A stretch of DNA of 64,000 nucleotides, taken from Chiloscyllium plagiosum. Taxonomy: Eukaryota. A model generated the notes under the pieces. It was given only the letters and a program-made list of their open reading frames with translations. It did not search any database and was not told the DNA's origin. Shown here one piece after another: positions 564-55,124 of the stretch (position 1 is its first letter; the number at the start of each line of letters is the position of its first letter). The translations under genes and the position numbers were made by a program. The DNA is taken from NCBI RefSeq assembly GCF_004010195.1, contig NC_057718.1:77811571-77875570 (forward strand), written 5' to 3'.

Positions 564-784
564 GGAGGAGAAAGTGGGGACTGCAGATGCTGGAGATCAG
601 AGCTGAAAAATGTGTTGCTGGAAAAGCGCAGCAGGTCAGGCAGCATCCAAGGAGCAGGAGAATCGACGTTTCGGGCATAAGCCCTTCTTCAGGAATCATC
701 CTGAAGAAGGGCTTATGCCCAAAACGTCAATTCTTCGGCTCCTTGGATGCTGCCTGACCTGCTGCGCTTTTCCAGCAACACATT
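564..784 (-). mobile_element. Fold-back mini Penelope-like element, family A
   Basis: Inverted arms ~607-693 / ~699-786, unpaired tail 564-606; direct repeat TTAAAGTCAG at 554-563 and 785-794; arm sequence matches the 3' end of the PLE fragments at 21278-21680 and 44293-44825. Confidence 0.85.
661..696 (-). ncRNA. Minimal type I hammerhead ribozyme motif (family A)
   Basis: Minus strand reads ATTC-CTGAAGA-A-GGGC-TTAT-GCCC-GAAA-CGTC-GATT. Confidence 0.75.
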
Positions 785-3005: not shown

Positions 3006-4794
3006 GAAAGGAAGGGGGTTCATTTCAGAACATTTGGTAAGTCCAGCTAGCCCTGTGAATAATCACTGCTCCAGTTTGCTGTAATAGAAAATGGAAGCTT
3101 TAGCCTCTGCATGAAATTGCCTCATAAGAACATGGATAAAATTGGAAACATTTCAGGATTAATTGTAAATTCTAGTGATCCATTTTCTGTAAATTCTAAC
3201 CAAAGTCGTCATCATGCTAATGGTATTCATGATAAACCTTAACTAATGAAATATTCCTCCAGAACACCGCATCTGAGAGGTAACTATATTAGCCTAGTAA
3301 ATTGTTGTTAGTATCCAAATGAATACCATGGCAAGTACTTGAAGATTAGAAAGCTGATAAATTGTGTTCGAATTGAATCTATTAATGTGAAGCTGGGCTA
3401 TTCAATAATTGCTGAGAATTAAATTAGAATTCAAAACCTTACTATTCAGCTACGTTAGCAGAATGTATTGTGATTCCCATGGGGAAACTGCAAACCAAAA
3501 TAACCTAATTTACTGAATGACCTCCATAAAAGAAATCACCAGTAGGATTCCAAGTTTTTATCGCTTTTTTTAGCATATATCAGAACCAATGAAAATTACA
3601 CATCAATTAAGAGGCAAATGATGCTCCAAATGAAAAGAGAAATTTCATTTTAAATAGTTGCCGCAACAAAAATATATCTTATAAAATCAAAATACCCACT
3701 TTCACTCCCCACACAAATGTGGCACTGTGTACAATCTCAGTCTTTCCAATGCATCATCTGGTACATAGAAAGTTAACCCAGATAGGGCACATCTGTAGAA
3801 GTCCTTTCCTATCAATTCTGATGGGGCAGCCTTTTATAGAGAGCTCATCTTACTTCCAAAAACATAAGGAGTTTAACAACTGTACCCTGCTACACTCCAT
3901 ATTTGTATCTACATTTTGTGTGCTCATTGCTCTCTGACTTCAACTTTCCTTTGTGTTTGAAGTTCTCCTTTACATCTGCCAGATATATGGCTGGTCTCAA
4001 CTGCCTTTCTTTCAGCATTGATACTAGGTCAAGCATCACCAATTCACAAAGGCCAGTATTTCTTAATGTCTGAGAAAATGACATTTGGTTCCTTTACTAT
4101 TGATGGAGACTGTTAAAAATCCTTTTCAAACATGCTTAAAAAGACTGACAGAGTTCAAAGACATTTCAAAGAAACTATACCTTTTTCTTTGCGCACTGTT
4201 TGTAGGTCAAAGATTGAAAAAGTCGCTGAACTGCTGAAAACCTTTCATACAAACAGAAGTTTGAGAGTTCAAGCACATCGGCTATCACTTTCGCTTGTTT
4301 TTATTTGATACGTTAAGCTCAGTCTACTCTTGGTGAGGCCACTATGAATGAAGAAGGAGGGATGGAGATCTTACCCTAACTGGGCACTTCAGCTTAGCTC
4401 ATGCCTCTGGGAATATTGGGGCCATATAGCCTGTTCCTATGTTAATATTTCCATGTAATCTTGAGAACTGAATCACTTCAGTAATTGGGAGCAAGAAAGA
4501 TAGGATTGGGTAAGGGAGGAAAGGAAGTCAAGCAAAGAGGGGAGGGCGAGGAGAGAGAGTGGGACCCAAATTCCTTAAATGGCCATTGTACACCTGTATA
4601 TTCCCTACAATGGAGTCCACATCGTGTACATTAAAATGAATGTAAAATTTCCAACTGAACACCTTTATATGTCCGCTAAGGATGTGGCCTGATGCTGTTT
4701 AAACTGACATGGTCATGCAGCTGCTTAGTGAGATTTATTTCATTCAGGTGAGTGTGTGTTATTTTCACCCTTATTCTGATGGTTGATGACATTT

Positions 4795-5302
4795 GGGGCG
4801 GTACGGTGGCACAGTGGTTAACACTGCCTCACAGTGCCAGAGACCTGGCTTCAATTCCCGCCTTCTGGAGTTGAGTGGTGCTGGAAAAGCACAGCAGTTC
4901 AGGCAGCATCCGAGGAGCAGGAAAATCGCATTTCGGGCAATTTTCCTGCTCCTCGGATGCTGCCTGAACTGCTGTGCTTTTCCAGCACCACTCTACACCA
5001 GAACCTGGTTTCCAGCATCTGCAGTTATTGTTTTTACCTAGTTCAATTCCCGCCTTGGGCAACTGTCTGTGTGGAGTTTGCACATTCTGCATGTCTGTGT
5101 GGGTTTCCTCTGGGTGCTCCACTTTCCTCCCAAAGTCCAAAGATGTGCAGGTTAGGTGAAATGGCCATGCTAAATTGTCCATAGTGTTAGGTGAAGGGGT
5201 AAATGTAGGGGAATGGACTTGGGTGGGTTGTTCTTCGGAGGATCAGTGTTGGCATATTGGGCCGTAGGGCTTGTTTCCACACTGTAAGTAATCTAATCTA
5301 AT
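4795..5302 (+). mobile_element. HE1/V-SINE-type tRNA-derived SINE, interrupted by a PLE mini-element
   Basis: A box GGTGGCACAGTGG, B-box-like TTCAATTCC, V-SINE core TGTGTGGAGTTTGCAC..GGGTTTCCTC, (TAATC)n tail; matches 16863-17155. Confidence 0.9.
4865..5041 (+). mobile_element. Fold-back mini PLE, family A (apex partly deleted)
   Basis: Inverted arms; perfect 15-bp TSD TTCAATTCCCGCCTT at 4850-4864 and 5042-5056. Confidence 0.88.
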
Positions 5303-5939
5303 TATCCAAATCAGTCTGGTTAAGTAAGGTGAACCCCATTCCTTGCCAGGAAGTGATGTGAAATTTCTGCAGAATTTACCATATTGCATCTTGTATTATT
5401 CCAATTAAAGATGTCAGCTGTGTTAACACCTTTTTTGCAAAATATTATGTGCGTTGTTTGTAGTTCAGATCAAAGCTGAGAAGAAATAAAATGGAGCATG
5501 AATCTGCTATCCTCTCTCAGGGTAACAACATTAGTGATGCCACATCTGCCACTCCACCAATACACTTTCTGCTGCCTATCTGCCTATCAGCTCAGACAGC
5601 TGGGGTCAAACCAAGATAATGGAGTCTGAAACCTGTCCTTTTAGAACCAGACTTGCTCAAGGCCATTTCAGTTTCCTTCACTGAAAGCCTGCAGCCATCC
5701 ACCATTTTGTAACAATGCCAGAACAAGCAAAGTAATGATGAAGACCATGTACAAAGGATGTATGCAAGGGCGATTCAATAACATATTTATGCAACTTGGC
5801 ATGATTTGATTTAGAAATTTGATTTGGAATGAGTATTTTGAGTTGACGTTTAATTTTGCATTGGAGCAGAGGGCACGGTGATGGACAGTGGCAGAAAATA
5901 ACATCAGTAGAAATGGGATTTGAACTGAATCTTTTAGTT

Positions 5940-6270
5940 TCTCAAACCTGTTCTGCTATTCAATAAAATCATGGCTGATCTGATGGTGGCATTATCTTAC
6001 TTTCTTGCCTATTCCCATTAGACGTCTTTACAAATCAAAATCCCATCTAACTCAGCCTTAACACATCTATTGAATCAACTTCCACTGTTCTCTGTTCAAA
6101 GAGAATGGCAAATAATAATAGGCCTCTGACAGAAGCAATTTCTTTACATGTCTGTCTTAAATGAGAGACCCTGTATTTTTAAACTGTGTACCCAGGAGCT
6201 AGGCCTCCAGAAGAGAAACATCCTATCAGCACCCCACTTAATCCCACTCAGAATCTTTTCCATTTCATTA
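5940..6270 (-). mobile_element. Degraded CR1 3' end
   Basis: Resembles the minus-strand CR1 3' ends at 56015-56400 and 60160-60540. Confidence 0.65.
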
Positions 6271-8169
6271 GCATTACTTCTTATTCATAAGGTAAGGAGT
6301 GAAGGATTGTTGGTGAAGAGAAAATTGAAGTTGAGGTTATTTGTATCACACATTAATTAATTTTCTACGTATAGGCTGGACAAAAAGGGACATTCTTCTT
6401 CCTTCTCCATTCTCAAGCATATTAGTCTACTTTTGTTTTTGATCCCTGCTTATGCTCTCAATCTAGAAGGCCTATTACTGCATCCATGAATTCGATCTTG
6501 CAGATATGCTGAAATCACCAGAATGTACTTCATCACTTGCCCCCTTCACTTCTTGTAGATGTTTGAAACAACTGTGGAAGGCATCAAAAAACATACTAAA
6601 TTGTAGCAACAACCTGAAAAAAAAAGACCAATGCTTAAGTTAGTTGATAAGCCCCTTCAAGTAGGGGTCTTGGTGTCCTCCATACTAATTAAGATATTTT
6701 AACTATACAAGATCAAGAGAAGATACCAACTGGACTGTGAAACTCAAAATGGCATTGCTGGCATTAAGTCAGTCATCCACACTGAAAGACCTTATGCTCT
6801 GCGGCAGTGTAGGTATTTCTAATTGACCTGCTCAAGCATTTTACCTTTGAAGTAGGTGGGTCTTGAACCCAGGCCTTCTGGCTCAGAGGCAAGAAACTAC
6901 TTGCATTTCACAAGAACCCCCCGGCCTGCTGAATATACTTGCAGAGGACATTAACTGCTCATGAACTGCTGTCTTTACTCTGATAGCATTCAGCGCTTCA
7001 ATTCAGAAGCGTGCATGCACAGCATATTCACCATCTTTGAACTCCGATTTCACCTACAAGATCTTTAATATATTTTAAATAGATTTAAATTCCCATCACT
7101 TTACTAAAATAGCAAGCTGTTGCAATTTTCAAAAATAACTGTTTAAGTTTTGTGCCATTAAAAATAAAAGAAGGGTTTGCCCTGCCCTTATCTAGCTGAA
7201 TTAACACCAGTCTGAATCAAAAGCCAGTAGTACTACTATTGAGGCTGACACACATTGTACTGTCAGTCTTTTGTAGGCCAAGCAGAGATACTAAGCCATT
7301 GAATAGCAGATGCCCAAGAATCAGATGCACGTGATTCTGATAATACATAAAAATGAAGCACTATCTTGGATGGAAAATACCAGAAGTGTGGCCAGAATTA
7401 CAAAGGGAGATCTGATATAAAAATCATTTATTGAATTCGACTGATTACAAAAGATAGGATTAATTTTGACTCAGTTTTTGGATTTTTTGGAAAGAATTAT
7501 GTCATTGAATACCTCATAACTGGAGGACTGTATTTGAAAGAAATGGACTGAATAAATGAGCTCTTGTCCAAATAATTCTTCAGTCATAACCCATAAATTT
7601 CAGAGATATATAATTGAGATCAAGGGCACACATTTCTGACCGTGAGATCTATTTTAGTGAATTAAATAGTTTGATTATTATTTTGACCTGATTTTTCACT
7701 GTAATTGAAAATAAACAGTATGAAAACTACAGCCTGTAAAATTTTTAAATGGTTGAATTAGTTCAACAAATATGCAAGGCACAAGGCTTGAATATTAAAT
7801 TGCATTCTTGTGCTTCAGTTAATGGCTTCAATAAATCAGACATTAGGAGCTGGTTTCCGCTATGAGATTGAGGACCCCACCATCAGGCCCAAATGGGGAC
7901 AGAAAATTACACTTTGAGGCAACAATCACTCATATATGATTTTGACTGAATTAGCCGATTAATGCCAGAAGGTGGACGTTCAATTAAGAATATTAAATGG
8001 ACTTGTAAAGCTGGAGGGCAAATAGACTGCACTTATATGTAAACAGCCTATGATGGAGGCCCACATTCCTTAACTTCTGAAATTCTTAAATGGAAAAAGG
8101 CCTTAGTAGCTGGAACACAGTGGGAGGCTTGGGACAACAGTGCCCCGACCATCAAAACAAACAACAAAC

Positions 8170-8830
8170 CCCTGTCCAATATGGATAATTTCCTATACCC
8201 CCAGAGTGTCCTTTCGTTGTGTGCAGACATTGACGAGGAAAGCCAACATCAAATCCAATGCACCAGTGCAACCACTGGACACCTGCAGAACAGAGTGTTC
8301 GAAGTCCCAGCACCAAGCTCATGGTTTACAGAGCAACTGAAGTCACACTCTCCTGAATGTATCAGAAACATGGATCATGTACACCTCAAATCCCTGCAGA
8401 GTTAACACTAGCCTTTACAAATCCTGCAAATCCATTGCAGGATCAGTGTTTCAAAGTGAGCATCCTCTCCTAGGCCTGTACCCCCAGCATGACCAGCTGT
8501 TAGGCAAGCCACATTATTTACAAGACTATCTAAACAAGTGTTCTATTCTGAAATCTGCAATGTTAAGCAATAACCAGGAGGGCAGAGGAAACACCACAAG
8601 CACATCCTGAAAACCTGCCTAAAGGAAAGCAATGTCCCATTGACACTAGGGAATCATTTGCACTGGAATGCACAAACTAGAAAAGAACCATGTACAAAGG
8701 CACGAATGACTTCAAGCGTCACCAAGTGAAGCATGTGGAAGCATGAAAAGAATGTGCAAAATGCAGAGTGTCCCAGGAACCACCTCTTCTCCCTCAGAGT
8801 GGAAGCAAATTATCCTTGAATCCGAGGAAC
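8170..8830 (+). mobile_element. RTE-clade LINE, RT C-terminal fragment
   Basis: ORF 8181..8405 NFLYPQSVLSLCADIDEESQHQIQCTSATTGHLQNRVF resembles the RTE motif F.YLGS.LS..A.ID.E...RI..AS.AFG.L..RV. Confidence 0.7.
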
Positions 8831-9009
8831 TATTAAATAAGAAAAAGAAGATTTGGAGTAGGAGAGGAATCCCTCCATAGTCTGACCTGCACCTGCATTT
8901 TACCCAGGCAGGTCAGGAGGGCCTATTGGCTGGAACGTGTTATCCAGATTTTCACTCCCCCTTGTATGCATTCATAGTTTTAGATTGGTCAAAGGAAACT
9001 TCTGGTCTC

Positions 9010-9146
9010 CACACCTGCATGCCTTCAATTATGCCCAGCCTTCTAATTCTTCACAAACTTTCCTATTTCCAAGGTTTTGTGCATGCACATTTTCTGGAGG
9101 TAGACTTAAATCACCAGGTGCCTCCAGTGAAGTAGAATTTCAGCAT
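9010..9146 (+). repeat. 137-bp direct repeat, copy 1
   Basis: Matches 10061-10197 with 2 mismatches. Confidence 0.95.
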
Positions 9147-9318
9147 ATCTGGCACAAAATTCATCCAATTTGCCTTTGGCAATAAACCTCTTCAGTTTCA
9201 TCTTTCTGTTCTCTACTTATGAAATGCTTTCTCTATTCATCACAGTTTTTTTTTACTATCCTTATTGTCCATACTGTCCTTCACAATGACTGCTTGCAAA
9301 TTAGCTGCTGTTATTCAA

Positions 9319-9663
9319 AGTTAAAAATCACACAACACCAGGTTATAGTGCAACAGGTTTTTTTGGAAGTACTAGCTTTTGGAGCGCTGCTCCTTCATCA
9401 GGTAGCTGGGGAGCAGGATCATAAGACACAGAATTTATAGCAAAAGATCATAGAGTCCTGCAATTGAAATGATACATTGAACAAACCTAGATTGCTGTTA
9501 AGTCTTTCATCTTGTCGAATGGATTGCAGGCTTTGATTCATTAATAAGTAAATATTATGCTCCGAATGCTACACTTCCAAATAAACCTATTGGACTATAA
9601 CCTGATGTTGTGTGATTTTTAACTTTGTCCATCCCAGTCCAACACCAGCACCTCCACATCATG
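9319..9663 (+). mobile_element. Fold-back PLE, family B, with long left arm
   Basis: AAAGTTAAAAATCACACAACACCAGG... inverted at 9575-9626; left arm is the reverse complement of the pLTR at 54860-55090; degenerate TSD GCTGTTATTCAA (9307-9318) / GCTATTATACAA (9664-9675). Confidence 0.85.
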
Positions 9664-10060
9664 GCTATTATACAAGACCACATACTACATCTTAGATGAG
9701 TCTTTTGATGGACTTGCTGAAACTTGACATTGATGTCAAATTCGTCCTGTTTACTGAGGTTGCCTCACCAGTTATGCTGTGACAGTTAATGTTGGGGAAG
9801 TAATTTTGCAAAATCACAAGGCCATGTCCCAATTTGTCTCAACTGCACAGAAACCTCCTCCTCTACATCCTCTTCTAAACCTCTTGCAAAGTCCTAAACA
9901 CCTACCAATCACTCAAGCTCCCCAACAATTGCCAAGATCTCCTTTCTCCTCCTTCTTCCCTTCTAAACTGACTGACCTTGTTCTCGTTGATGTTAGCTTT
10001 CACCTAAATTGCTACAGCATCTTCTCACTTGTTCTGTTTCCCTATGCTCAAATTCCCCTG

Positions 10061-10197
10061 CACACCTGGATGCCTTCAATTATGTCCAGCCTTCTAATTC
10101 TTCACAAACTTTCCTATTTCCAAGGTTTTGTGCATGCACATTTTCTGGAGGTAGACTTAAATCACCAGGTGCCTCCAGTGAAGTAGAATTTCAGCAT
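10061..10197 (+). repeat. 137-bp direct repeat, copy 2
   Basis: Matches 9010-9146. Confidence 0.95.
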
Positions 10198-11244
10198 CCC
10201 TGTAGTGTGGAAAGGATAAAGTGCAAGTTAGATTTGCCAACAGTAGGTCTGAACTTTATGGATTGAGAGTAGCCATTTGGATATTGTCTTAGGGCATCTT
10301 TGGATGTCAGGTATGCTTTAGAGAATGCCAGGTGGCTTTTGGGGAATGGTAGCTTTTTGGGAGGAATCAAGTATTTTTTTGGAGGGATTCAGTAGCTATT
10401 GTAAGGAGTCAGATGTCCTTGAGAGGGAATCAGGTAGCATTTGGGGTGATCATGTGGGGTGGAATGGTGTGAAATGGTCAGATATGAGTCAGCTGCTCTT
10501 TTGTAGGATCTAAGAGCAAAGTCGCTTTTTGGAGATGGTTGGAAAAATCTGGTACTCATGAGATGTGGGGATAAGGTACCCTTCAAGGAAAGATAGTTTT
10601 CAAGACTGTTAACAGCACAGAAGATTTTGTCCAAAAGATACATAAACTCTTTGGGAATGTAAAGCTGTCAAGAAATGCCAAAGCTGTTAAATATCTTGAA
10701 GTGTCAAACTTCTCAATTACTGTCAAAAAGTGTCAAAACAGTCAATATCTAATCAATTGACGTTTATGAATGAATGATTTCTCAATATAATGTATTCATC
10801 AACATAGACCTTTAAGTAATAGAACATTACTTTTCCCTCTCTGTGCACTGCTATTTTAGGCACTGGTAAAGGGGTAATGAATGGTGGGTGGAAATAGGCA
10901 CTAAGTTGGCACAAGAGGTACACAGTGCCATTTGGCATGGGTATAGAGCCAGAGGGCTCATGAGGATGTATAGGGGGCTTAAGAGTATGAGAGATCATGG
11001 GAACAGATTGAATGACATAGGCTGCCATTGAAGTAATCAGAGATAATGGTAGAGAGCATTAGATGCATGGGCTGGTATGGAGGGAACACAGTGAGCATGT
11101 GAAGGTGAGGGGGATGAGAGAAGTAAGGACTAGAGGAATGTTTTATTTTTGTTTGAACTTCTGAGTGAAGTGCTGGAGCGTTGAGGCACATTTTCCATCT
11201 AATCTGCCTCAACATCTGACAGCCGGATATTGCCCAGAGAGTTC

Positions 11245-19873: not shown

Positions 19874-20038
19874 ATCGCACAACACCAAGTTATAGTCCAA
19901 CAGGCTTATTTGGAAGCACTAGCTTTCGAAATGCTGCTCCTTCATCAGGTGATTGTGTGAAACCTGTTGGACTATAACCTGGTGTTGTGTGATTTCTAAC
20001 TTTGACACCCCAGTCCAACATCGGCGTCTCCAAATCAT
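19874..20038 (+). mobile_element. Fold-back mini PLE, family B (apex deleted)
   Basis: CACAACACCAAGTTATAGTCCAACAGG inverted against CCTGTTGGACTATAACCTGGTGTTGTG, followed by the family-B tail. Confidence 0.85.
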
Positions 20039-21079: not shown

Positions 21080-21277
21080 GTGTGGTTGGAGTATCCCAAG
21101 GTGGAGGATGAGGACATTGATTCTAAGTTGTTGGAGGGTCCCAAAGTGGAAGATGAGGACATTGATTATGTGTTTTTGGAGGGTCCCAAAGCAGAAGATG
21201 AGGACATTGATTCTGTGTGGTTGGAGGGTCCCAAGCTGGACACTGATTCCGTGTGGTTGGAGTGGCCCAAGGCAGAA
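21080..21277 (-). repeat. Tandem array of a 45-bp PLE endonuclease-derived unit
   Basis: Units start at 21080, 21125, 21170, 21215 (36 bp) and 21251 (partial); minus-strand translation repeats LIFHLGTLQPHGINV-like 15-mers (ORF 21065..21289). Confidence 0.92.
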
Positions 21278-21680
21278 CCCTCCAACCACACAGTATCAAA
21301 GTCGATTTCACCAGTTTCCTCATCTCCCCTCCTCCCACCTTATCCCAGATCCAACCCTCCAACTCCGCACTGCCCTCTTGAACTGTCCTACCTGTCCATC
21401 TTCCTTCCTACCTATCTGCTTCACCCTCTACTCCAACCTATCACTGTCACCCCCCACCTTAATCCACCTAACGCATTCCTAGTTTCCCTTCCCCCCAGAC
21501 CATGCCCCCTCCCATTTATCCCTCAATCCCCTTGCCCCCACCCCTCACAACATTCCTGATGAAGAGCTTATGCTTGAAGTGTCGACGCTCTTGCTCCTCA
21601 GATGCTGCTTGACTGGCTGTGCTTTTCTAGCGCCATGCTTTTTGACTCTGATCTTCAGCATCTGCAGTCCTCACTTTCTC
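21278..21680 (+). mobile_element. PLE family A 3' end (GIY-YIG C-terminus, 3' UTR, decayed hammerhead, tail)
   Basis: Aligns with 44470-44825; degenerate TSD CTAATCTGTAAAGGA (21065-21079) / CTAACCTCTAAAGAA (21681-21695). Confidence 0.88.
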
Positions 21681-24625: not shown

Positions 24626-25301
24626 CATCCTACTGGGAGAAGATAAGCTTATACTAAGGACAGTAACTGATCTGTGCAGAAGTGCCAAAGTTGTCAATCA
24701 ACAACTACAGCACATTCATGGCAGAACACACCAGGTCTCACATTGTGCTAACAGATACTTCAGGTATGGTACACCAATCATGAAAAACAAGACATATCCA
24801 GTGTGGGTAAACTGGCATTTACACTGAAAAATGCTGAATCATTTTCCACACAATTGTATGGCTAAAAGAAGCAGGTATAGGTGGCCACTGAAGAGACAGT
24901 GGCTGAACATTCTGATGAATCACTGTACACCATACACCAGGTTAGCTCAGTCGAGTTTATAGATGATACAGGGTTTGTGACTGTTGGAATGAGAACTGCA
25001 GAAGAACAGCAGGATAATATAAAATGTCAGATAGACACTGGTGCATCGTGTAACATCATAACCTTCACAAACCTGTCCAATGTGGCTCAACATGATGATG
25101 CCAAAATAAAGCCCTCAGAAGTAAGTTTAAGATTATATGATAGCATCACATTCATACTGAGAGGACAAATTACTCTGTGAGCTCATTATAATAAAATATA
25201 TTATAGCACCAGATTCATGCTGAGAGGACAGCTTACTCCGTGAGTCAAAGTTAAAAATCACACAACACCAGGTTATAGTCCAACAGGTTTAATTGGAAGC
25301 A

Positions 25302-25337
25302 CACTAGCTTTCGGAGCGTTGCTCCTTCATCAGGTGG
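25302..25337 (-). ncRNA. Minimal hammerhead ribozyme motif (family B)
   Basis: CCAC-CTGATGA-A-GGAGC-AAC-GCTCC-GAAA-GCTA-GTG; helix I CAC/GTG. Confidence 0.78.
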
Positions 25338-25341
25338 TAGT

Positions 25342-25377
25342 CCACCTGATGAAGGAGCGACGCTCTGAAAGCTAGTG
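25342..25377 (+). ncRNA. Minimal hammerhead ribozyme motif (family B)
   Basis: CCAC-CTGATGA-A-GGAGC-GAC-GCTCT-GAAA-GCTA-GTG. Confidence 0.72.
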
Positions 25378-25470
25378 TGCTTCCAATTAAACCTGTTGGA
25401 CTATAATCTGGTGTTGTGTGATTTTTAACTTTGTACACCCCAGTCCAACACCGGCATCTCCAAATCCGTG

Positions 25471-25659
25471 AGTCAAGAGTGTGATGCTAGAAAAGCACAG
25501 TAGGTCAGGCAGTACCAGGATGAAGGCTTCCTGATGAAGGGCTTTTGCCCAAAACATCAACTCTCCTGCTCCTCGAATACTGCCTGACCTGCTGTGCTTT
25601 TCCAGCACCACACTTGCGACTCTAATCTCCAGCATCTGCAGTCCTCACTTTCGCCTAGA
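25471..25659 (+). mobile_element. Fold-back mini PLE, family A
   Basis: Inverted arms plus tail; TSD TTACTCCGTGAG (25233-25244) / TTACTCAGTGAG (25660-25671). Confidence 0.85.
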
Positions 25660-25758
25660 TTACTCAGTGAGCCCATTGCAATAGCATGAACAAGATTCTG
25701 AAGTTCCATCCCATAGCTGACAAGCAAATGCTAGTCTTCTCAACTGGAGCAAGTCTAA

Positions 25759-25980
25759 GTTGAAACTTTATTGCTGGAACAGCACAGCAGGTCAGGCAGC
25801 ATCCAGGGAACAGGAGATTCGACGTTTCGGGCACAGGCCCTTCTTCAGGAAACCTGAAGAAGGGCCTGTGCCCGAAACGTCGAATCTCCTGTTCCCTGGA
25901 TGCTGCCTGACCTGCTGTGCTGTTCCAGCAATAAAGTTTCAACTTTGATCTCCAGCATCTGCAGACCTCACTTTCTCCTC
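25759..25980 (+). mobile_element. Fold-back mini PLE, family A, very young
   Basis: Perfect 93-bp arms 25757-25849 / 25853-25945, AAA loop, 35-nt tail; perfect TSD GGAGCAAGTCTAA at 25746-25758 and 25981-25993. Confidence 0.95.
25816..25852 (-). ncRNA. Minimal hammerhead ribozyme motif (family A)
   Basis: TTC-CTGAAGA-A-GGGC-CTGT-GCCC-GAAA-CGTC-GAA; mirror copy on + at 25853-25886. Confidence 0.78.
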
Positions 25981-26487
25981 GGAGCAAGTCTAAAGCCTGT
26001 TCCGAAAGAGAAGTGCAAAGTGTCACACTATACCAAACCTCCGACAGTGAAAAACATCCCACATGAGTACAAAGATGGGTTCACAGGGTTAGGATATCTT
26101 CTCAGAGAATGTCATCTTAAAATAGATGAGAATGCAAGGCCAATTCACTATCTGTCAATTCAGATTCAAAAAGTTCCTGTTGCCCCAAAGGTAAGACTGA
26201 AAAATAAGATAAAAGAGCTGAAGAAGAGAGTAATCAAGAAAGTGACAACTCCTGTACAGAATGGATTAGCATCAAGGTAGCAGTGAAACGAGCTGGAAAG
26301 CTGAAGGAGTACATTGACTCAAAGAATCTAAGTAAGGCCCTGAATAAATCTTAGTATCCCATGCCATCAATTGAAGGGAGTTTCTCACAACTCACCAAAG
26401 CAAAATTCTTCACCGCCGTAGATGTGAAGAAGTGTTATTAACAAGTGAAACTAGAAGTAAGCAGCAGCTTTCTAATAAGCCAAGTAA

Positions 26488-26690
26488 ATTCAAAATACTG
26501 TGGATGTTGGAAATCTAAAGCAAACACAGAATACTGGAGAAATTTAGCAGATCTGGCAGAATCTGCAGACATAGAAACTGAGTTAACATTCAAATCTGGT
26601 ATGATTCTTCTTCAGATAATTCTGTTTCTCTCTTCACAAATGCAGCCAGACCTGTTGAGTTTCTCCAGCATTCTTTTTGTTTCAGTTTCC
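26488..26690. mobile_element. Old fold-back PLE, family C
   Basis: ACAGAATACTGGAGAAATTTAGCAGATCTGGC inverted against GCCAGACCTGTTGAGTTTCTCCAGCATTCT; decayed minus-strand core CTGAAGAA-GAATC..GATTT-GAATGTT. Confidence 0.7.
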
Positions 26691-28479
26691 CAACTATTCT
26701 TTACATCCTTCAAGAGATACAGATGGTTAGGTATTTTCTTTGGCATTTCCAATGCTTCAGAAGATTATCAACACACAATATGCAAGATAGTTCATGATCT
26801 TCCTGGATGATCTACTAGTCTCTGGATTGGAGACACAATGGAAGAAGTCACTGCTGACCATGATCAAAATCTAGGGTGACTGCTAGACAACATTCACCAG
26901 GTTGAACTTGAAGTTGAACAAAAAACTATATTACTATTAAAGGTAACTGAAGTCAAGTGATAGGCCATGTACTGACAGCAAAAGGTCTTTGCCCAGATTG
27001 CAAAAAGGTGAAACTGTAGTCAAACATGCAGCCAAACACAAACAATGAAATAAAGGATGACATCAGACTATGCAGTGTTCATAAAGACGTCCCAGACAGA
27101 CCATGAATGAAACTGGGAATAGATCTCTTCACACTTGCTTGAACTGTTTGTCGTGATTACTACTGGCTACTGAACCAGCGAGCTTCACTATCTATCACTG
27201 AGATTGTCAATTGCCTAAAAGTATACTTCAGCTGTTAAGGTATTCTTGACATTGTAATGAATGACAATGGTCTTCAGTTCATGAGTGAAGAACTGAATTG
27301 CTTCATGAAAGATTGGGAAATTTAATACCACGTAGTCAGTGTTCCTGTCAATTATATTTTTCTTTTGTGAAGATCTCTGAGCTCCATGCATGACAGTGAC
27401 CTTCAGGATCAGATTTCTCTCCAACACTGCAACAGTGATTGCCATGCCAGGCATGGACAGTTGGAGCAGCTGCATGTGTGTGAAGCTAAGAGGGAATGTG
27501 GTGCACAGCATCTCCACATTATTCCGAAATAAATAAAAAGACTAATGCAGCAGTTAAATTCACTGAAGAAATCATAAAGAAATTGTGCAAATTTCATAGA
27601 CAGGATACTGGGCAATCTTCAAGCGGAAAAACATACCTATTGAAGGTATGGAAAATAGTCAATTCCAAAGGCCAATGTCACACTCTGCACAAATTACTCT
27701 CTCAATAATGAAAAAGCTACTGAAGCTAGAAGTAGTAACAGATGTGGGTGGAAAAACCAAGGTGAAATGTCAAAAAGCTATATTTCATTTCCACAGGATT
27801 GTTAAATGCCAGAGTTAAGCATTGGCAAACCAGTCAGGACACAAACATTTACAACAATTCTCAACAAAATCCAGCTCAAGTGGCAACTTTGGACCTGTTT
27901 AGAGGAGTTGTCACATCAATTGTATGCAGTGGAAGAGAGCTATCAGATATACTGTCGCAACTGCAAGCACATACACAAAATCCAGAAGCTGTTCCTCAGC
28001 TGATCAGGAAAAGGTGAATGCACCACCTACACAGAGCACATAGAAACCATCAGAACCTGAGGTCCACAGCCACACAATAACAGAAATAAAAGTGCAATGG
28101 TTAATATAGCAGACAAAAATGAGACTGGAATAATATTTTCTGCCAAATATATATCACCCAGATGAACAGCCATTACGATTCTTAATCCCGCATTGAAACA
28201 AGGTCGTCCCAATACCAGTCTGTGTACTAGCTTGAATCTGTGTTCCCCCATTCTACTCCTACAGTACATGCAGTAATTGTAGAGGCACGCATTGCACAAA
28301 GTATATTTAACACAGGAATGAGGCCAGTAGGTTGATTTAATATATCTGGTCTCATTTTGTTTGCCAAACATGATCTGTTCTCCCTGCACAAATGAATGAC
28401 ATTGCTTGCATTAGCCAGAATGCTCCAATAACTGCATTAAACAACAACTAAAGTTTTGTTAACTTCTTATTCATGCTGT

Positions 28480-32367: not shown

Positions 32368-32510
32368 AATAAAAACATAAATTGCTGAAAAAGGGTCACT
32401 GGACCCAAAATGTTACGTCTGTTTTTTCAGATGCTGCTAGACCTGCTGAGTTTTTTCAGCAAATTCTGTTTTTGTTGTAGATTTCTAACATCCTTGGTGC
32501 TTTGTTATAT
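32368..32510 (+). mobile_element. Old PLE terminus (family C-like) with decayed hammerhead
   Basis: CTGAAAA-A-GGGTC-ACTG-GACCC-AAAATGTT, then CAGATGCTGCTAGACCTGCTGAG. Confidence 0.65.
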
Positions 32511-41934: not shown

Positions 41935-42031
41935 GAGCTGAAAATGTGTTGCTGGAAAAGCGCAGCAGGTCAGGCAGCATCCAGGGAACAGGAGAATTGA
42001 CGTTTCGGGCATAAACCCTTCTTCAGGAATG
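41935..42031 (-). mobile_element. Single-arm PLE family A insertion with hammerhead core
   Basis: Perfect 14-bp TSD TTGGACAACATTCA at 41921-41934 and 42032-42045. Confidence 0.82.
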
Positions 42032-44292: not shown

Positions 44293-44825
44293 ACATTTCA
44301 GGGAACATCTCTAGGACACAAGAACTAAACAACCCCACTGCTCTGTGGCTGACCACTTCAGCTCTCCCTCCCATTCTACCAAGGACATGTAAGTTCTAGG
44401 CTTCCTCCACCACCAAATCCAAGCCAACTGACGAATGGAAGAAGAATGTCTCATCTTCCACCTTGGGATGCTTCAACCATATGGTATCAACATTGTCTTC
44501 ACTAGTTTCCAAATCTCCCTTCCCCCTACCTCATCCCAGATTCTCCAATGCAGCACCATTCTCTTCGCTTGTCCTACCTGTCCATTTTCCTTCTTACCTA
44601 TCTGCTCCACCTTCCCCACCGACCTATCACAATCACCCCTGACCTGTACCGACCTATTGTTTTCCCCCAGCCCCACCCCACACTTCTATTTATCTCTCAG
44701 CCCCCTTCCCCTCCCCACCTCCCACATTCCTGATGAAGGGTTTATGCCCGAAATGTCGATTCTCCCGCTCCTCAGATGCTGCCTGACCGGCTGTGCTTTT
44801 CTAGCGCCACATTTTTTGACTCTGG
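44293..44825 (+). mobile_element. PLE family A 3' end (GIY-YIG C-terminal half, 3' UTR, hammerhead at ~44726-44761)
   Basis: FREHL*DTRTKQPHCSVADHFSSPSHS...EEECLIFHLGMLQPYGIN; ATTC-CTGATGA-A-GGGT-TTAT-GCCC-GAAATGTC. Confidence 0.9.
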
Positions 44826-51471: not shown

Positions 51472-51698
51472 GCAAAAGTGAGAACTGCAGATGCTGGAAA
51501 CCAGAGTTTAGGTCAGAGTGGTGCTGGAAAAGCACAGCAGGTCAGGCAGCATCCAAGGAGCAGGAAAATCGACGTTTCGGGCAAAAGCCCTTCATCAGGA
51601 AACTGATGAAGGGCGTTTGCCTGAAACGTTGAGTTTCCTGCTCCTCGGATGCTGCCTGACCTGCTGTGCTTTTCCAGCACCACTCTGATCTACACCCC
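51472..51698 (-). mobile_element. Fold-back mini PLE, family A; hammerhead cores on both strands
   Basis: Perfect 16-bp TSD AGTATGGATCCAAGAG at 51456-51471 and 51699-51714; minus-strand TTC-CTGATGA-A-GGGC-TTTT-GCCC-GAAACGTC at 51567-51602. Confidence 0.92.
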
Positions 51699-54017: not shown

Positions 54018-54760
54018 CTGTCGTCAAGATATCTGGTGTATAGAGTTGGTTGGAGGTCCTGTGCAGCAAGGAAGTCTTGTTAGAACTTGTGCATGAAAAT
54101 GTTGGCATATTGGAATGCAAATTTGGTCCCCATGGATGTTCCGTGTATCTGGATGAAGAACTCGTTCTAGATTAGAGTGGTACTGGAAAAGCACAGCAGG
54201 TCAGGCAGCATCCAAGGAGCAGGAAAATCCCTCGGATGCTGCCTGACCTGCTGTGCTTTTTCAGCACCACTCTAATCTAGACTCTGGTTTCCAGTATCTG
54301 CAGTCCTTGTTTTTACCACCTTGAAGAACTCGTTGTCAAAGGTGAAAATGTTGTGGTCGAGCATGAAGCGGATGAGTTGTAGGATGGTGCTCGGAGATTG
54401 GCAGTTGTTGGTTGTGAATACTGAGGCTGTTGCAGCGATGCCGTCATCGTGGGAGCTGCTGGTGTAGAGTGCTGAAATGTCCATTGTGACGAGGAATGTT
54501 CCCACTTCGACTAGACTGTGGGTGCTGCGTTTTTGTAAGAAATTTGTTGTGTTGCAACAGAAGCTGGGGGTCCCCTGTAAAATGGGTTTCAAGATGCCTT
54601 GGACATAACCAGAGAGGATCACACACAGGGCCCCATTGCCTGATATGATGGGACGTCCAGGTGTGTTGACTTTGTGTATCTTCGGAAAGCAGTAGAAGTC
54701 ACCTATGCAAGAAGTACATGGGATGAGAGCATGTAAGGAACTCTTTGGGACTGGATCAAA
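54018..54760 (-). mobile_element. Penelope-like reverse transcriptase fragment
   Basis: ORF 54272..54799 FYCFPKIHK..PGRPIIS...LVTMDISALYTS; continues past the insertion as IQIHGTSMGTKFA..YANIFM...RYLDD. Confidence 0.92.
54167..54321 (+). mobile_element. Fold-back mini PLE, family A (apex deleted), inside the PLE RT
   Basis: Perfect TSD TGAAGAACTCGTT at 54154-54166 and 54322-54334. Confidence 0.9.
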
Positions 54761-55124
54761 CCTCATACCTTTAATGCATTGTCTGAGCTGAGATGTCACT
54801 TTTTTAAATAAAATCTTAAATTATCGCAGAATGTGACTTAAAAGAAGTTCTGGGTTTTACATATTAATGAACCAAAACCTGCAACCCATTTGAAAAGATG
54901 AAAGACTTAACAACAATCTAGGTTTATTCAATATATCATTTCAGTTGCATGACACTATAATCTTTTATTTAAATTCTGTGTCTTATGGTCCTGCTCCTTA
55001 ACTACCTGATGAAGGAGCGGCACAACGAAAGCTAGTGCTTCCAAATAAACCTGTTGGACTATAACCTGATGTTGTGTGATTTTTAACTTTGTCCACCCCA
55101 GTCCAACATCGGCTCCTCCACATC
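54761..55124 (+). mobile_element. PLE family B pseudo-LTR/3' end with decayed hammerhead (~55003-55037)
   Basis: TAC-CTGATGA-A-GGAGC...GAAAGCTAGTG followed by the same terminus as 25342-25464. Confidence 0.88.

What the first reader, a model, noticed from the sequence alone, without database searches (positions are those of the whole stretch)
25302..25377. Hammerhead core conserved across three PLE families with different, base-paired stem II
Seen: family A CTGA(A/T)GA-A-GGGC-NNNN-GCCC-GAAA-CGTC (loops TTAT, CTGT, TTTT); family B CTGATGA-A-GGAGC-NAC-GCTCC-GAAA-GCTA; family C-like GGGTC-ACTG-GACCC in a decayed core (32385-32414). All have an extra A after A9. In the intact A and B copies helix III is reduced to a palindromic tetramer (ACGT or AGCT). 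Known: minimal PLE hammerheads with palindromic helix III are thought to cleave as dimers. Inference: cleavage after GTC (A) or CTA (B). Helix I is only 2-4 bp, so activity is not guaranteed.
Basis: partly seen in the sequence, partly recalled or inferred. Interest (0 to 1): 0.72.

Follow-up and report, generated by a model that had tools for sequence, protein, structure and literature searches.

The report
Minimal hammerheads in shark Penelope elements
These motifs are the already described minimal hammerhead RNA at the ends of Penelope-like jumping genes in a shark-type genome; their stems covary across the families, they likely cut only slowly and in pairs, and RNA reads show one family's transcripts running uncut through the motif to a poly(A) site about 30 bases beyond it.

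Summary
25302-25377 holds two family-B minimal type I hammerhead motifs on opposite strands, in a fold-back stub of a Neptune-type Penelope-like element (PLE) with a 12-bp target duplication. A descriptor finds 84 motifs in 979 kb of sampled genome, against 0-3 in shuffles. Across 12 subfamily majorities from five families, helices I, II and III all covary (97 of 108 pairs formed; 60 expected), and five families compared share all 11 core bases. Every diagnostic trait is in Cervera & de la Peña 2014. The two focal cores cannot pair in cis: a read-through RNA folds into one long hairpin. Cleavage is untested, and a genomic footprint at the cut site was inconclusive. Two side results: (1) copy 5' ends pile up at the front edge of helix I, which this scan has noted before on other DNA of this genome and another; (2) in one RNA run, family-B reads cross the predicted cut site at flat depth and carry non-templated poly(A) about 30 nt downstream, behind an ATTAAA/AATAAA signal. 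The motif may therefore sit in a retrovirus-like terminal-redundancy segment.

The parts
25302..25336 (-). Family B minimal type I hammerhead motif, left arm: 3-bp helix I, 5-bp stem II, AGCT helix III; predicted cut between 25305 and 25304
25343..25377 (+). Family B minimal hammerhead motif, right arm, with G-U at 10.1-11.1; predicted cut between 25374 and 25375
25246..25465 (.). Fold-back stub of a Neptune-type PLE: 92-bp arms 25246-25337 and 25342-25433 (97% complementary); about 30-bp tail on the right arm only; junction at the front edge of helix I
   Evidence: (I12)
25237..25248 (+). Left copy of a 12-bp target-site duplication
25465..25476 (+). Right copy of the 12-bp target-site duplication
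25386..25391 (+). ATTAAA polyadenylation signal of the right arm; in homologous family-B RNA, poly(A) is added at the position matching about 25403-25406
25288..25293 (-). ATTAAA polyadenylation signal of the left arm
   Evidence: homology
25825..25877 (.). Family A1 fold-back pair of hammerhead cores, 25825-25848 (-) and 25854-25877 (+); helix I 5' strand clipped by the junction
   Evidence: (I10)
669..724 (.). Family A2 fold-back pair, 669-692 (-) intact and 701-724 (+) with G12 changed to A
51575..51626 (.). Family A3 fold-back pair of cores
42003..42026 (-). Family A core
44730..44753 (+). Family A core, preceded by repeat sequence shared with 21357-21650
   Evidence: (D12, D15)
21556..21579 (+). 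Decayed A4-type core (GAGC stem variant)
25531..25554 (+). Decayed family A core in the stub next to the focal insertion
19924..19948 (-). Family B core, stem II partly decayed
55006..55030 (+). Family B core, stem II broken
9377..9401 (-). Family B core with G12 changed to A
32385..32410 (+). Decayed family C core (G8 to A, G12 to A, C15.2 to T)
   Evidence: intact family
54272..54820 (-). Fragment of PLE reverse transcriptase, about 70-77% identical to RT copies elsewhere in the genome, several of which lie upstream of family-B cores

Best explanation
The motif is the minimal type I hammerhead that sits, sense strand, in the 3' UTR/pseudo-LTR of Neptune-type Penelope-like retrotransposons, kept in fold across families while the flanks diverged, and it likely cuts only slowly, as a dimer or with the element's protein. 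Shown: location, core conservation, covariation of all three helices, and uncut polyadenylated family-B RNA in one run. Inferred: two copies in one tandem transcript would pair their palindromic tetramers (ACGU or AGCU) to complete helix III, then cut after GUC (A), CUA (B) or GUU (C). Most RNA stays uncut and is the template for new insertions. The focal stub itself is a likely inert by-product: its two cores lie on opposite strands and would be locked in a long hairpin.
For: Core 11/11 identical in all 10 pairs among A1, B1b, C1, D1, E. The 45-nt flanks match only 7-15 of 45 ungapped in the 7 pairs involving B or D; A, C and E share 31-33 gapped matches. Pairs formed: 97 of 108, shuffle mean 60.3, 0 of 100,000 shuffles reach it; 33 of 36 for four deep lineages against 19.5. 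Slid controls give 25-40 of 96 against 87 of 96. Pair types: helix I 1.1 C-G/U-A/A-U; stem II 10.2 G-C/A-U/U-A; helix III C-G/G-C. One inserted base after position 9 in 94 of 94 hits when 0 or 1 was allowed and 286 of 293 when 0-2 was allowed. Endonuclease C-terminus with a C-x4-C-x2-C linker lies sense-upstream of A cores (about 230-330 nt) and, in most linked loci, B cores (about 460-700 nt); C cores lie 283-385 nt after the matched stretches in 2 of 25 loci. RVT_1 hits on A- and B-type RT pieces, which are 36% identical. PMC4209133 lists the same traits and found no monomer and low dimer cleavage. PMC11167929 found a PLE hammerhead that cleaves only with the protein, and uncut RNA as the insertion substrate. 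RNA depth is flat across the predicted B cut (1076/1053/1067).
Against: No cleavage was observed. Family majorities are related, so the shuffle value is not a true probability. Three helix III majorities (D1, D3, C2) and D2's G12 are CpG-decayed; A2-A4 have a mismatch at helix I pair 3. Among inserted A copies the core decays like the flank (31/1026 against 104/2849, Fisher p=0.37), as expected for dead copies. B's lower core decay (8/270 against 70/819) is confounded by alignment selection and subfamily variation. Pfam gave no hit on the B endonuclease piece or on the window RT fragment. Rfam gave no hammerhead hit. The isolated focal motifs fold no better than shuffles (z -0.37 and -0.69).
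Confidence: 0.8

Rival explanations
1. The fold is kept mainly as an end-joining or recognition element, not a cutter. The motif would lie in a segment present at both ends of the transcript, from a start site at the front of helix I to the poly(A) site 30 nt behind the cut site. Pairing of the two palindromic tetramers would hold the RNA ends together for a template jump.
For: 5' ends pile up at -10..-1 relative to C3: A 67 of 115 at risk, B 12 of 29, C 15 of 19, against 0-7% per 10 nt further upstream in A and B. The upstream flank is inverted or unique DNA, not subfamily sequence. The site reads TCATTC, TCAGTT or TCCACT, initiator-like by recalled consensus. Poly(A) is added at +57/+60 (750 reads), upstream of the genomic 3' ends at about +88 and +120. 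Those stubs therefore cannot be primed at that poly(A) end, which fits the internal priming in PMC11167929.
Against: The catalytic bases G5, G8, G12 and the NUH triplet are conserved, more than a 4-bp kiss needs. No cap-derived extra G was evident in the 100 listed rows each (read by eye). No pile of read starts. A 4-bp self-duplex is worth only -3 to -4.5 kcal/mol. Family D is mostly not truncated there (8 copies).
Confidence: 0.25
2. The ribozyme cuts efficiently in vivo and defines element RNA ends, for example for unit-length or circular RNA.
For: Perfect core conservation. About 16 of 100 listed truncated A copies start exactly at the cut site +28, against 3-8 at most neighbouring positions (tallied by eye).
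Against: An equal pile lies at +33, explained by TCCTG microhomology. About 12 of the 16 are fold-back or deletion junctions with GAAT/GA microhomology, leaving about 4 with apparently unique flank. B junctions pile at the AGCT palindrome instead. Most copies retain the whole core, so their template was uncut. No depth step in RNA.
Confidence: 0.15
3. The motif is a chance or purely promoter-type DNA conservation with no RNA fold.
For: It coincides with the 5'-end hot spot, so some bases could be promoter elements. Single motifs have no folding z-score.
Against: Compensatory changes in all three helices and failure of the slid controls; match to the published motif (PMC4209133).
Confidence: 0.03

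Closest known systems
Minimal hammerheads (min-HHR) of metazoan PLEs, Cervera & de la Peña 2014 (PMC4209133; parts 1-2 of 4 read; one supplement searched, the other not searchable)
   Same: Type I, sits in the pLTR, extra base between 9 and 10.1, G10.1-C11.1, palindromic 15.2-16.2, short helix I, many dispersed single or inverted copies; reported from fish Xena, Poseidon and Neptune elements.
   Different: No shark named in the passages read or in the searchable supplement. Stem II is 4-5 bp in A, B, C, E against 7-8 bp in the Schistosoma example. Density extrapolates to roughly 300,000 intact motifs, against 4,000-9,000 reported for coelacanth and Xenopus.
Anolis Poseidon element PAc, Frangieh et al. 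2024 (PMC11167929; parts 1-2 of 4 read)
   Same: Hammerhead in the pLTR, two alternative 3' ends (tail), uncut RNA used for insertion, no RNA-seq ends at the cut site.
   Different: Poseidon clade with the ORF starting in stem II. In family A here, sequence continues past about +130 into a likely ORF start (L228). A poly(A) site behind the motif is not described in the parts read.
Insertion units of EN+ PLEs: inverted 5'-truncated pLTR, one-sided 30-40 bp tail (PMC8557442, PMC3846280; passages read)
   Same: Head-to-head arms, tail on one arm, a target duplication of 8-10 bp in the rotifer cases (12 here), and an Inr-like TCACT noted in a rotifer pLTR.
   Different: A truncation hot spot at the helix I edge is not stated in the passages read.
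Animal non-LTR retrozymes (bioRxiv 10.64898/2026.07.22.740005; part 1 of 5 and passages read)
   Same: Type I hammerhead derived from PLE pLTRs; one chondrichthyan was sampled.
   Different: Retrozymes are head-to-tail arrays; these copies are dispersed or head-to-head stubs of coding PLEs.

Membership tests
PLE minimal type I hammerhead | CUGANGA and GAAA core with an NUH cut triplet | tested here: met
   11/11 core bases in five families; triplets GUC, CUA, GUU. The NUH rule is recalled.
PLE minimal type I hammerhead | One extra base between positions 9 and 10.1 | tested here: met
   94 of 94; 286 of 293
PLE minimal type I hammerhead | G10.1-C11.1 pair and a paired helix II | tested here: met
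   12 of 12 majorities; the focal plus copy has G-U
PLE minimal type I hammerhead | Helix III reduced to palindromic 15.2-16.2 | tested here: met
   ACGT or AGCT; 10 of 12 majorities paired, one of them G-U by CpG decay; the other two CpG-decayed
PLE minimal type I hammerhead | Short helix I with covariation | tested here: met
   Pairs 1 and 2 formed in 12 of 12, pair 3 in 9 of 12, pair 4 in 7 of 12
PLE minimal type I hammerhead | Located in the pLTR of a PLE, sense strand | tested here: met
PLE minimal type I hammerhead | Self-cleavage as a dimer or with protein help | not testable with these tools
   Genomic footprint and RNA reads inconclusive
Neptune-clade EN+ PLE (families A, B, C) | RT followed by a C-terminal GIY-YIG endonuclease with a Cys-rich linker | tested here: met
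   RVT_1 hits. C-x4-C-x2-C and YIGET motifs read from translations; Pfam did not hit the endonuclease piece. For C only the endonuclease end was seen.
Neptune-clade EN+ PLE (families A, B, C) | RT phylogeny places it in Neptune | not tested
   No reference PLE proteins were fetched and no tree was built
Non-LTR retrozyme | Head-to-tail array of non-coding hammerhead units | tested here: not met
   1 of 79 classified A copies tandem, 51 inverted, 25 unique flank; linked to a coding PLE
Canonical Rfam hammerhead families | Covariance-model match | tested here: not met
   No hammerhead among 15 matches at E<=5; expected for a motif lacking helix III

The most novel reading that the evidence does not exclude
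In shark Neptune elements the hammerhead fills a retrovirus-like R segment, bounded by a transcription start at the front of helix I and a used poly(A) site 30 nt past the cut site. Its palindromic helix III joins the 5' and 3' ends of one transcript to steer the reverse-transcriptase jump. The countless 130-bp stubs are then the equivalent of strong-stop DNA, and cutting is secondary.
Probability: 0.17. Interest if true: 0.75.

Novelty: new member of a known kind. Interest (0 to 1): 0.33.

Why it matters
The motif is known, but its job in PLEs is an open question (PMC8557442 says so). This genome offers natural compensatory variants of every helix, three different cut triplets and very high copy numbers, which makes a ready test set. 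The poly(A) site behind the family-B motif, if it holds in more samples, maps the transcript's 3' end. It would also imply that the short insertions come from the 5' copy of the repeat, and that tens of thousands of stubs can donate poly(A) signals to host RNAs.

Tried and rejected
Rfam scan: no hammerhead; only miRNA-type hairpin hits, all below their gathering scores, several on fold-back stubs. Single-motif folding: no z-score. Two-strand folding gave stem II-swapped or other non-hammerhead dimers, so it neither supports nor excludes the dimer. Core-versus-flank decay among inserted copies is uninformative, because dead copies decay neutrally. Cap-derived extra G at the 5'-end hot spot: not evident in 100 of 11,517 and 100 of 6,844 listed rows, read by eye. 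Cleavage footprint: 100 of 1,499 A rows and 100 of 1,104 B rows were listed and read by eye, with 30 loci each seen in context; inconclusive because of microhomology. Two same-strand C cores 3.3 kb apart proved to be a segmental duplication, not a full element. No complete ORF was recovered; candidate loci have assembly gaps. Run search: no RNA holder listed. Family-A lay: no start or end piles, and no poly(A) among the shown loose ends, 304 rows not shown. Run X20 gave 8 and 0 reads, so it is no test. Lünse et al. (RNA Biology) is not held and is known here only through the review PMC6765202 (passages). Searches for prior print on the poly(A) site or template jump (listings only) and for shark found nothing specific; the library lacks most subscription papers, and one supplement of PMC4209133 and bioRxiv supplements were not visible.

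Full report
Observation. The interval 25302-25377 spans two family-B hammerhead motifs placed head to head: a minus-strand copy (25336-25302) and a plus-strand copy (25343-25377). They are the centre of a fold-back insertion with 92-bp arms at 97% complementarity. The right arm alone has a tail of about 30 bp, and the insertion carries a 12-bp target duplication at 25237-25248 and 25465-25476. The window holds 10 recognisable A cores, 5 B cores and one decayed C core. A structural descriptor (CTGANGA, 0-1 inserted base, stem of at least 4 bp, GAAA) gives 10 hits in the window against a shuffle mean of 0.14. It gives 84 hits in 100 position-chosen 10-kb stretches (979,172 non-N bases) against 0-3 in ten shuffles, and all 94 hits have one inserted base. 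Scaled to the 3.56-Gb assembly this is roughly 300,000 intact motifs, a rough extrapolation. Exact patterns give 18,938 B and 11,517 A1 matches, with reversed-pattern controls of 0.

What the families are. Translating upstream of A cores gives a GIY-YIG-type endonuclease end with a C-x4-C-x2-C linker, about 465 nt from the YIG codon to the core, same strand. That crude motif scan gave 8 sense hits, one of them unrelated, and 2 antisense hits. The B endonuclease is followed on the same strand by a B core about 460-700 nt later in 7 of 8 loci where a B core was the first core found, and 77 nt later in the eighth; many hits ran off the locus with no core. C cores follow a similar endonuclease in 2 of 25 loci chosen for long upstream sequence, and several other loci show the endonuclease without a core matching my pattern. 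RT pieces of the A and B type hit Pfam RVT_1 and are 36% identical; Pfam missed the endonuclease piece and the window's RT fragment. The Cys linker marks Neptune or Nematis in PMC8557442; no tree was built. The sample revealed further families: E (related to A and C) and D, whose endonuclease reads like Poseidon (label recalled). Copies show two 3' ends, about +88/+120 for B and +98/+132 for A, counted from C3. This is the known one-sided tail.

Covariation. I took majority motifs for 12 subfamilies (A1-A4, E, B1, B1b, C1, C2, D1-D3). The 11 core bases are identical in all ten pairs among A1, B1b, C1, D1 and E, while 45 flanking bases are at chance level for pairs involving B or D. Of nine predefined pairs per row, 97 of 108 form. 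Dealing out the 3' partners gives a mean of 60.3, and none of 100,000 shuffles reaches 97. Four deep lineages alone give 33 of 36 against 19.5, and sliding partners by 1-2 bases gives 25-40 of 96 against 87. Related rows inflate such tests, but compensatory pairs occur within families too: G-C to A-U at 10.2 in A4 and C2, and CCA/UGG, UCA/UGA, GCA/UGC in helix I of D1-D3. Exceptions: pair 3 of helix I is a mismatch in A2-A4; pair 4 is absent in B and D; and CpG decay has eroded the majorities of the small groups D1-D3 and C2. Among inserted copies the A core decays like its flank (3.0% against 3.7%, p=0.37); B's apparent excess is confounded. Selection therefore acted on the replicating lineages, not on these stubs.

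How it likely works. By standard numbering the cut falls after GUC (A, D, E), CUA (B) or GUU (C). Helix III has no loop, so it can form only between two copies through the palindromic tetramer. PMC4209133 (parts 1-2 read) found no monomer and low dimer activity for such a motif. PMC11167929 (parts 1-2 read) found cleavage only with the element's protein, and uncut RNA as the insertion substrate. The focal pair cannot be such a dimer: the cores are on opposite strands, and a read-through RNA folds into one long hairpin (-176 kcal/mol, z -24). I looked for a genomic trace of cutting by listing copies that lack the GAAA. About 16 of 100 A rows start at +28, but as many start at +33. About 12 of the 16 are explained by fold-back or deletion on short homologies, including the helix I strands themselves, and B junctions favour the AGCT palindrome (tallied by eye). 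This is inconclusive.

Where copies begin. I anchored on sequence downstream of the motif, keeping 201 of 208 A, 49 of 50 B and 47 of 47 C hits. 5' ends pile up in the ten bases before C3: A 67 of 115 at risk, B 12 of 29, C 15 of 19, against 0-7% per 10 nt further upstream in A and B. C lacked a long upstream reference, and both arms of a fold-back are counted. The flank there is an inverted arm or unique DNA (A 51 and 25 of 79; B 6 and 6 of 13; C 5 and 10 of 17), so subfamily divergence does not explain it. The site resembles a Pol II initiator (consensus recalled), but I saw no cap-derived G and no pile of read starts. I noted this before consulting earlier scan notes; several of them report the same hot spot and reading.

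RNA. One poly(A) single-cell run (X19; same species label as the best holders of the sequence, identity with this organism not established; about 2 in 100 of the run read) laid 2,496 reads on a family-B stretch. Depth over the motif is about 1,050 for one orientation against 100-180 for the other. It is flat across the predicted cut (1076, 1053, 1067). 337 plus 413 reads leave the element at +57 and +60 into poly(A), and 181 more near the tail end with weaker agreement. None of 148 genomic B copies has an A-run there, and the hexamer 12-15 nt upstream is ATTAAA in 113 and AATAAA in 27 of them. A GU-rich tract follows. Variant bases show several source loci. So uncut, polyadenylated family-B RNA exists, and the poly(A) site lies upstream of both genomic 3' ends. 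A cleaved 30-nt product would probably be invisible, many reads come from stubs inside host transcripts, and family A showed no such site among the rows displayed. Searches (listings) found no earlier mention; the library is incomplete.

Verdict. Catalysis stays untested. The added value is the covariation set, the start-edge hot spot (already noted in this scan) and the poly(A) site. Together these leave open a retrovirus-like terminal-redundancy role for the motif (probability about 0.17). Interest 0.33.

Noticed in passing
L230:5146-5166 (homologous to window 25386-25406): Family-B stubs carry an ATTAAA/AATAAA signal that is used for polyadenylation in one RNA run (750 reads), so such stubs may terminate host transcripts.
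   Followed up: partly
window 25246-25465 and other fold-back stubs: 5' ends and inversion junctions cluster at the front edge of helix I in families A, B and C, but not clearly in D.
   Followed up: yes
rows, e.g. L278/L279; rows: Fold-back junctions also cluster on the helix III palindrome (CTAGCTAG in B, GACGTC in A) and on the complementary helix I strands, suggesting snap-back priming of cDNA on the ribozyme's own symmetry.
   Followed up: partly
window about 24700-27000: The B, A3 and A1 stubs are nested in decayed coding sequence that reads like an old LTR-retrotransposon pol region (DTGASCN-type protease and RT-start motifs; label recalled). The B stub sits at the edge of the adjacent A stub, which has its own approximate 12-bp duplication (25234-25245 / 25660-25671).
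   Followed up: no
L110:6736, L129:5718, L098:7832 and others: Family D, Poseidon-like by recall: hammerhead with T as the extra base, 6-bp stem II and three covarying helix I variants, about 180-210 nt after the FLEAWH motif.
   Followed up: partly
window 4881-4988, 54172-54263: Fold-back A stubs lacking the core score as weak miRNA hairpins in Rfam (below gathering scores); artefacts of the inverted arms.
   Followed up: partly
window 21080-21240: 45-bp tandem repeat with open frame (PKVEDEDID-like) just upstream of a family-A 3' fragment; not examined.
   Followed up: no
window 9007-9151 and 10058-10202: 145-bp direct repeat at 97% identity, 1,051 bp apart, around a family-B insertion; not examined.
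   Followed up: no
L254/L255 (G000:C1 about 31,161,800): Fold-back A1 stub in which both arms lack 8 bases starting exactly at the predicted cut site; single case with 1-nt microhomology.
   Followed up: no
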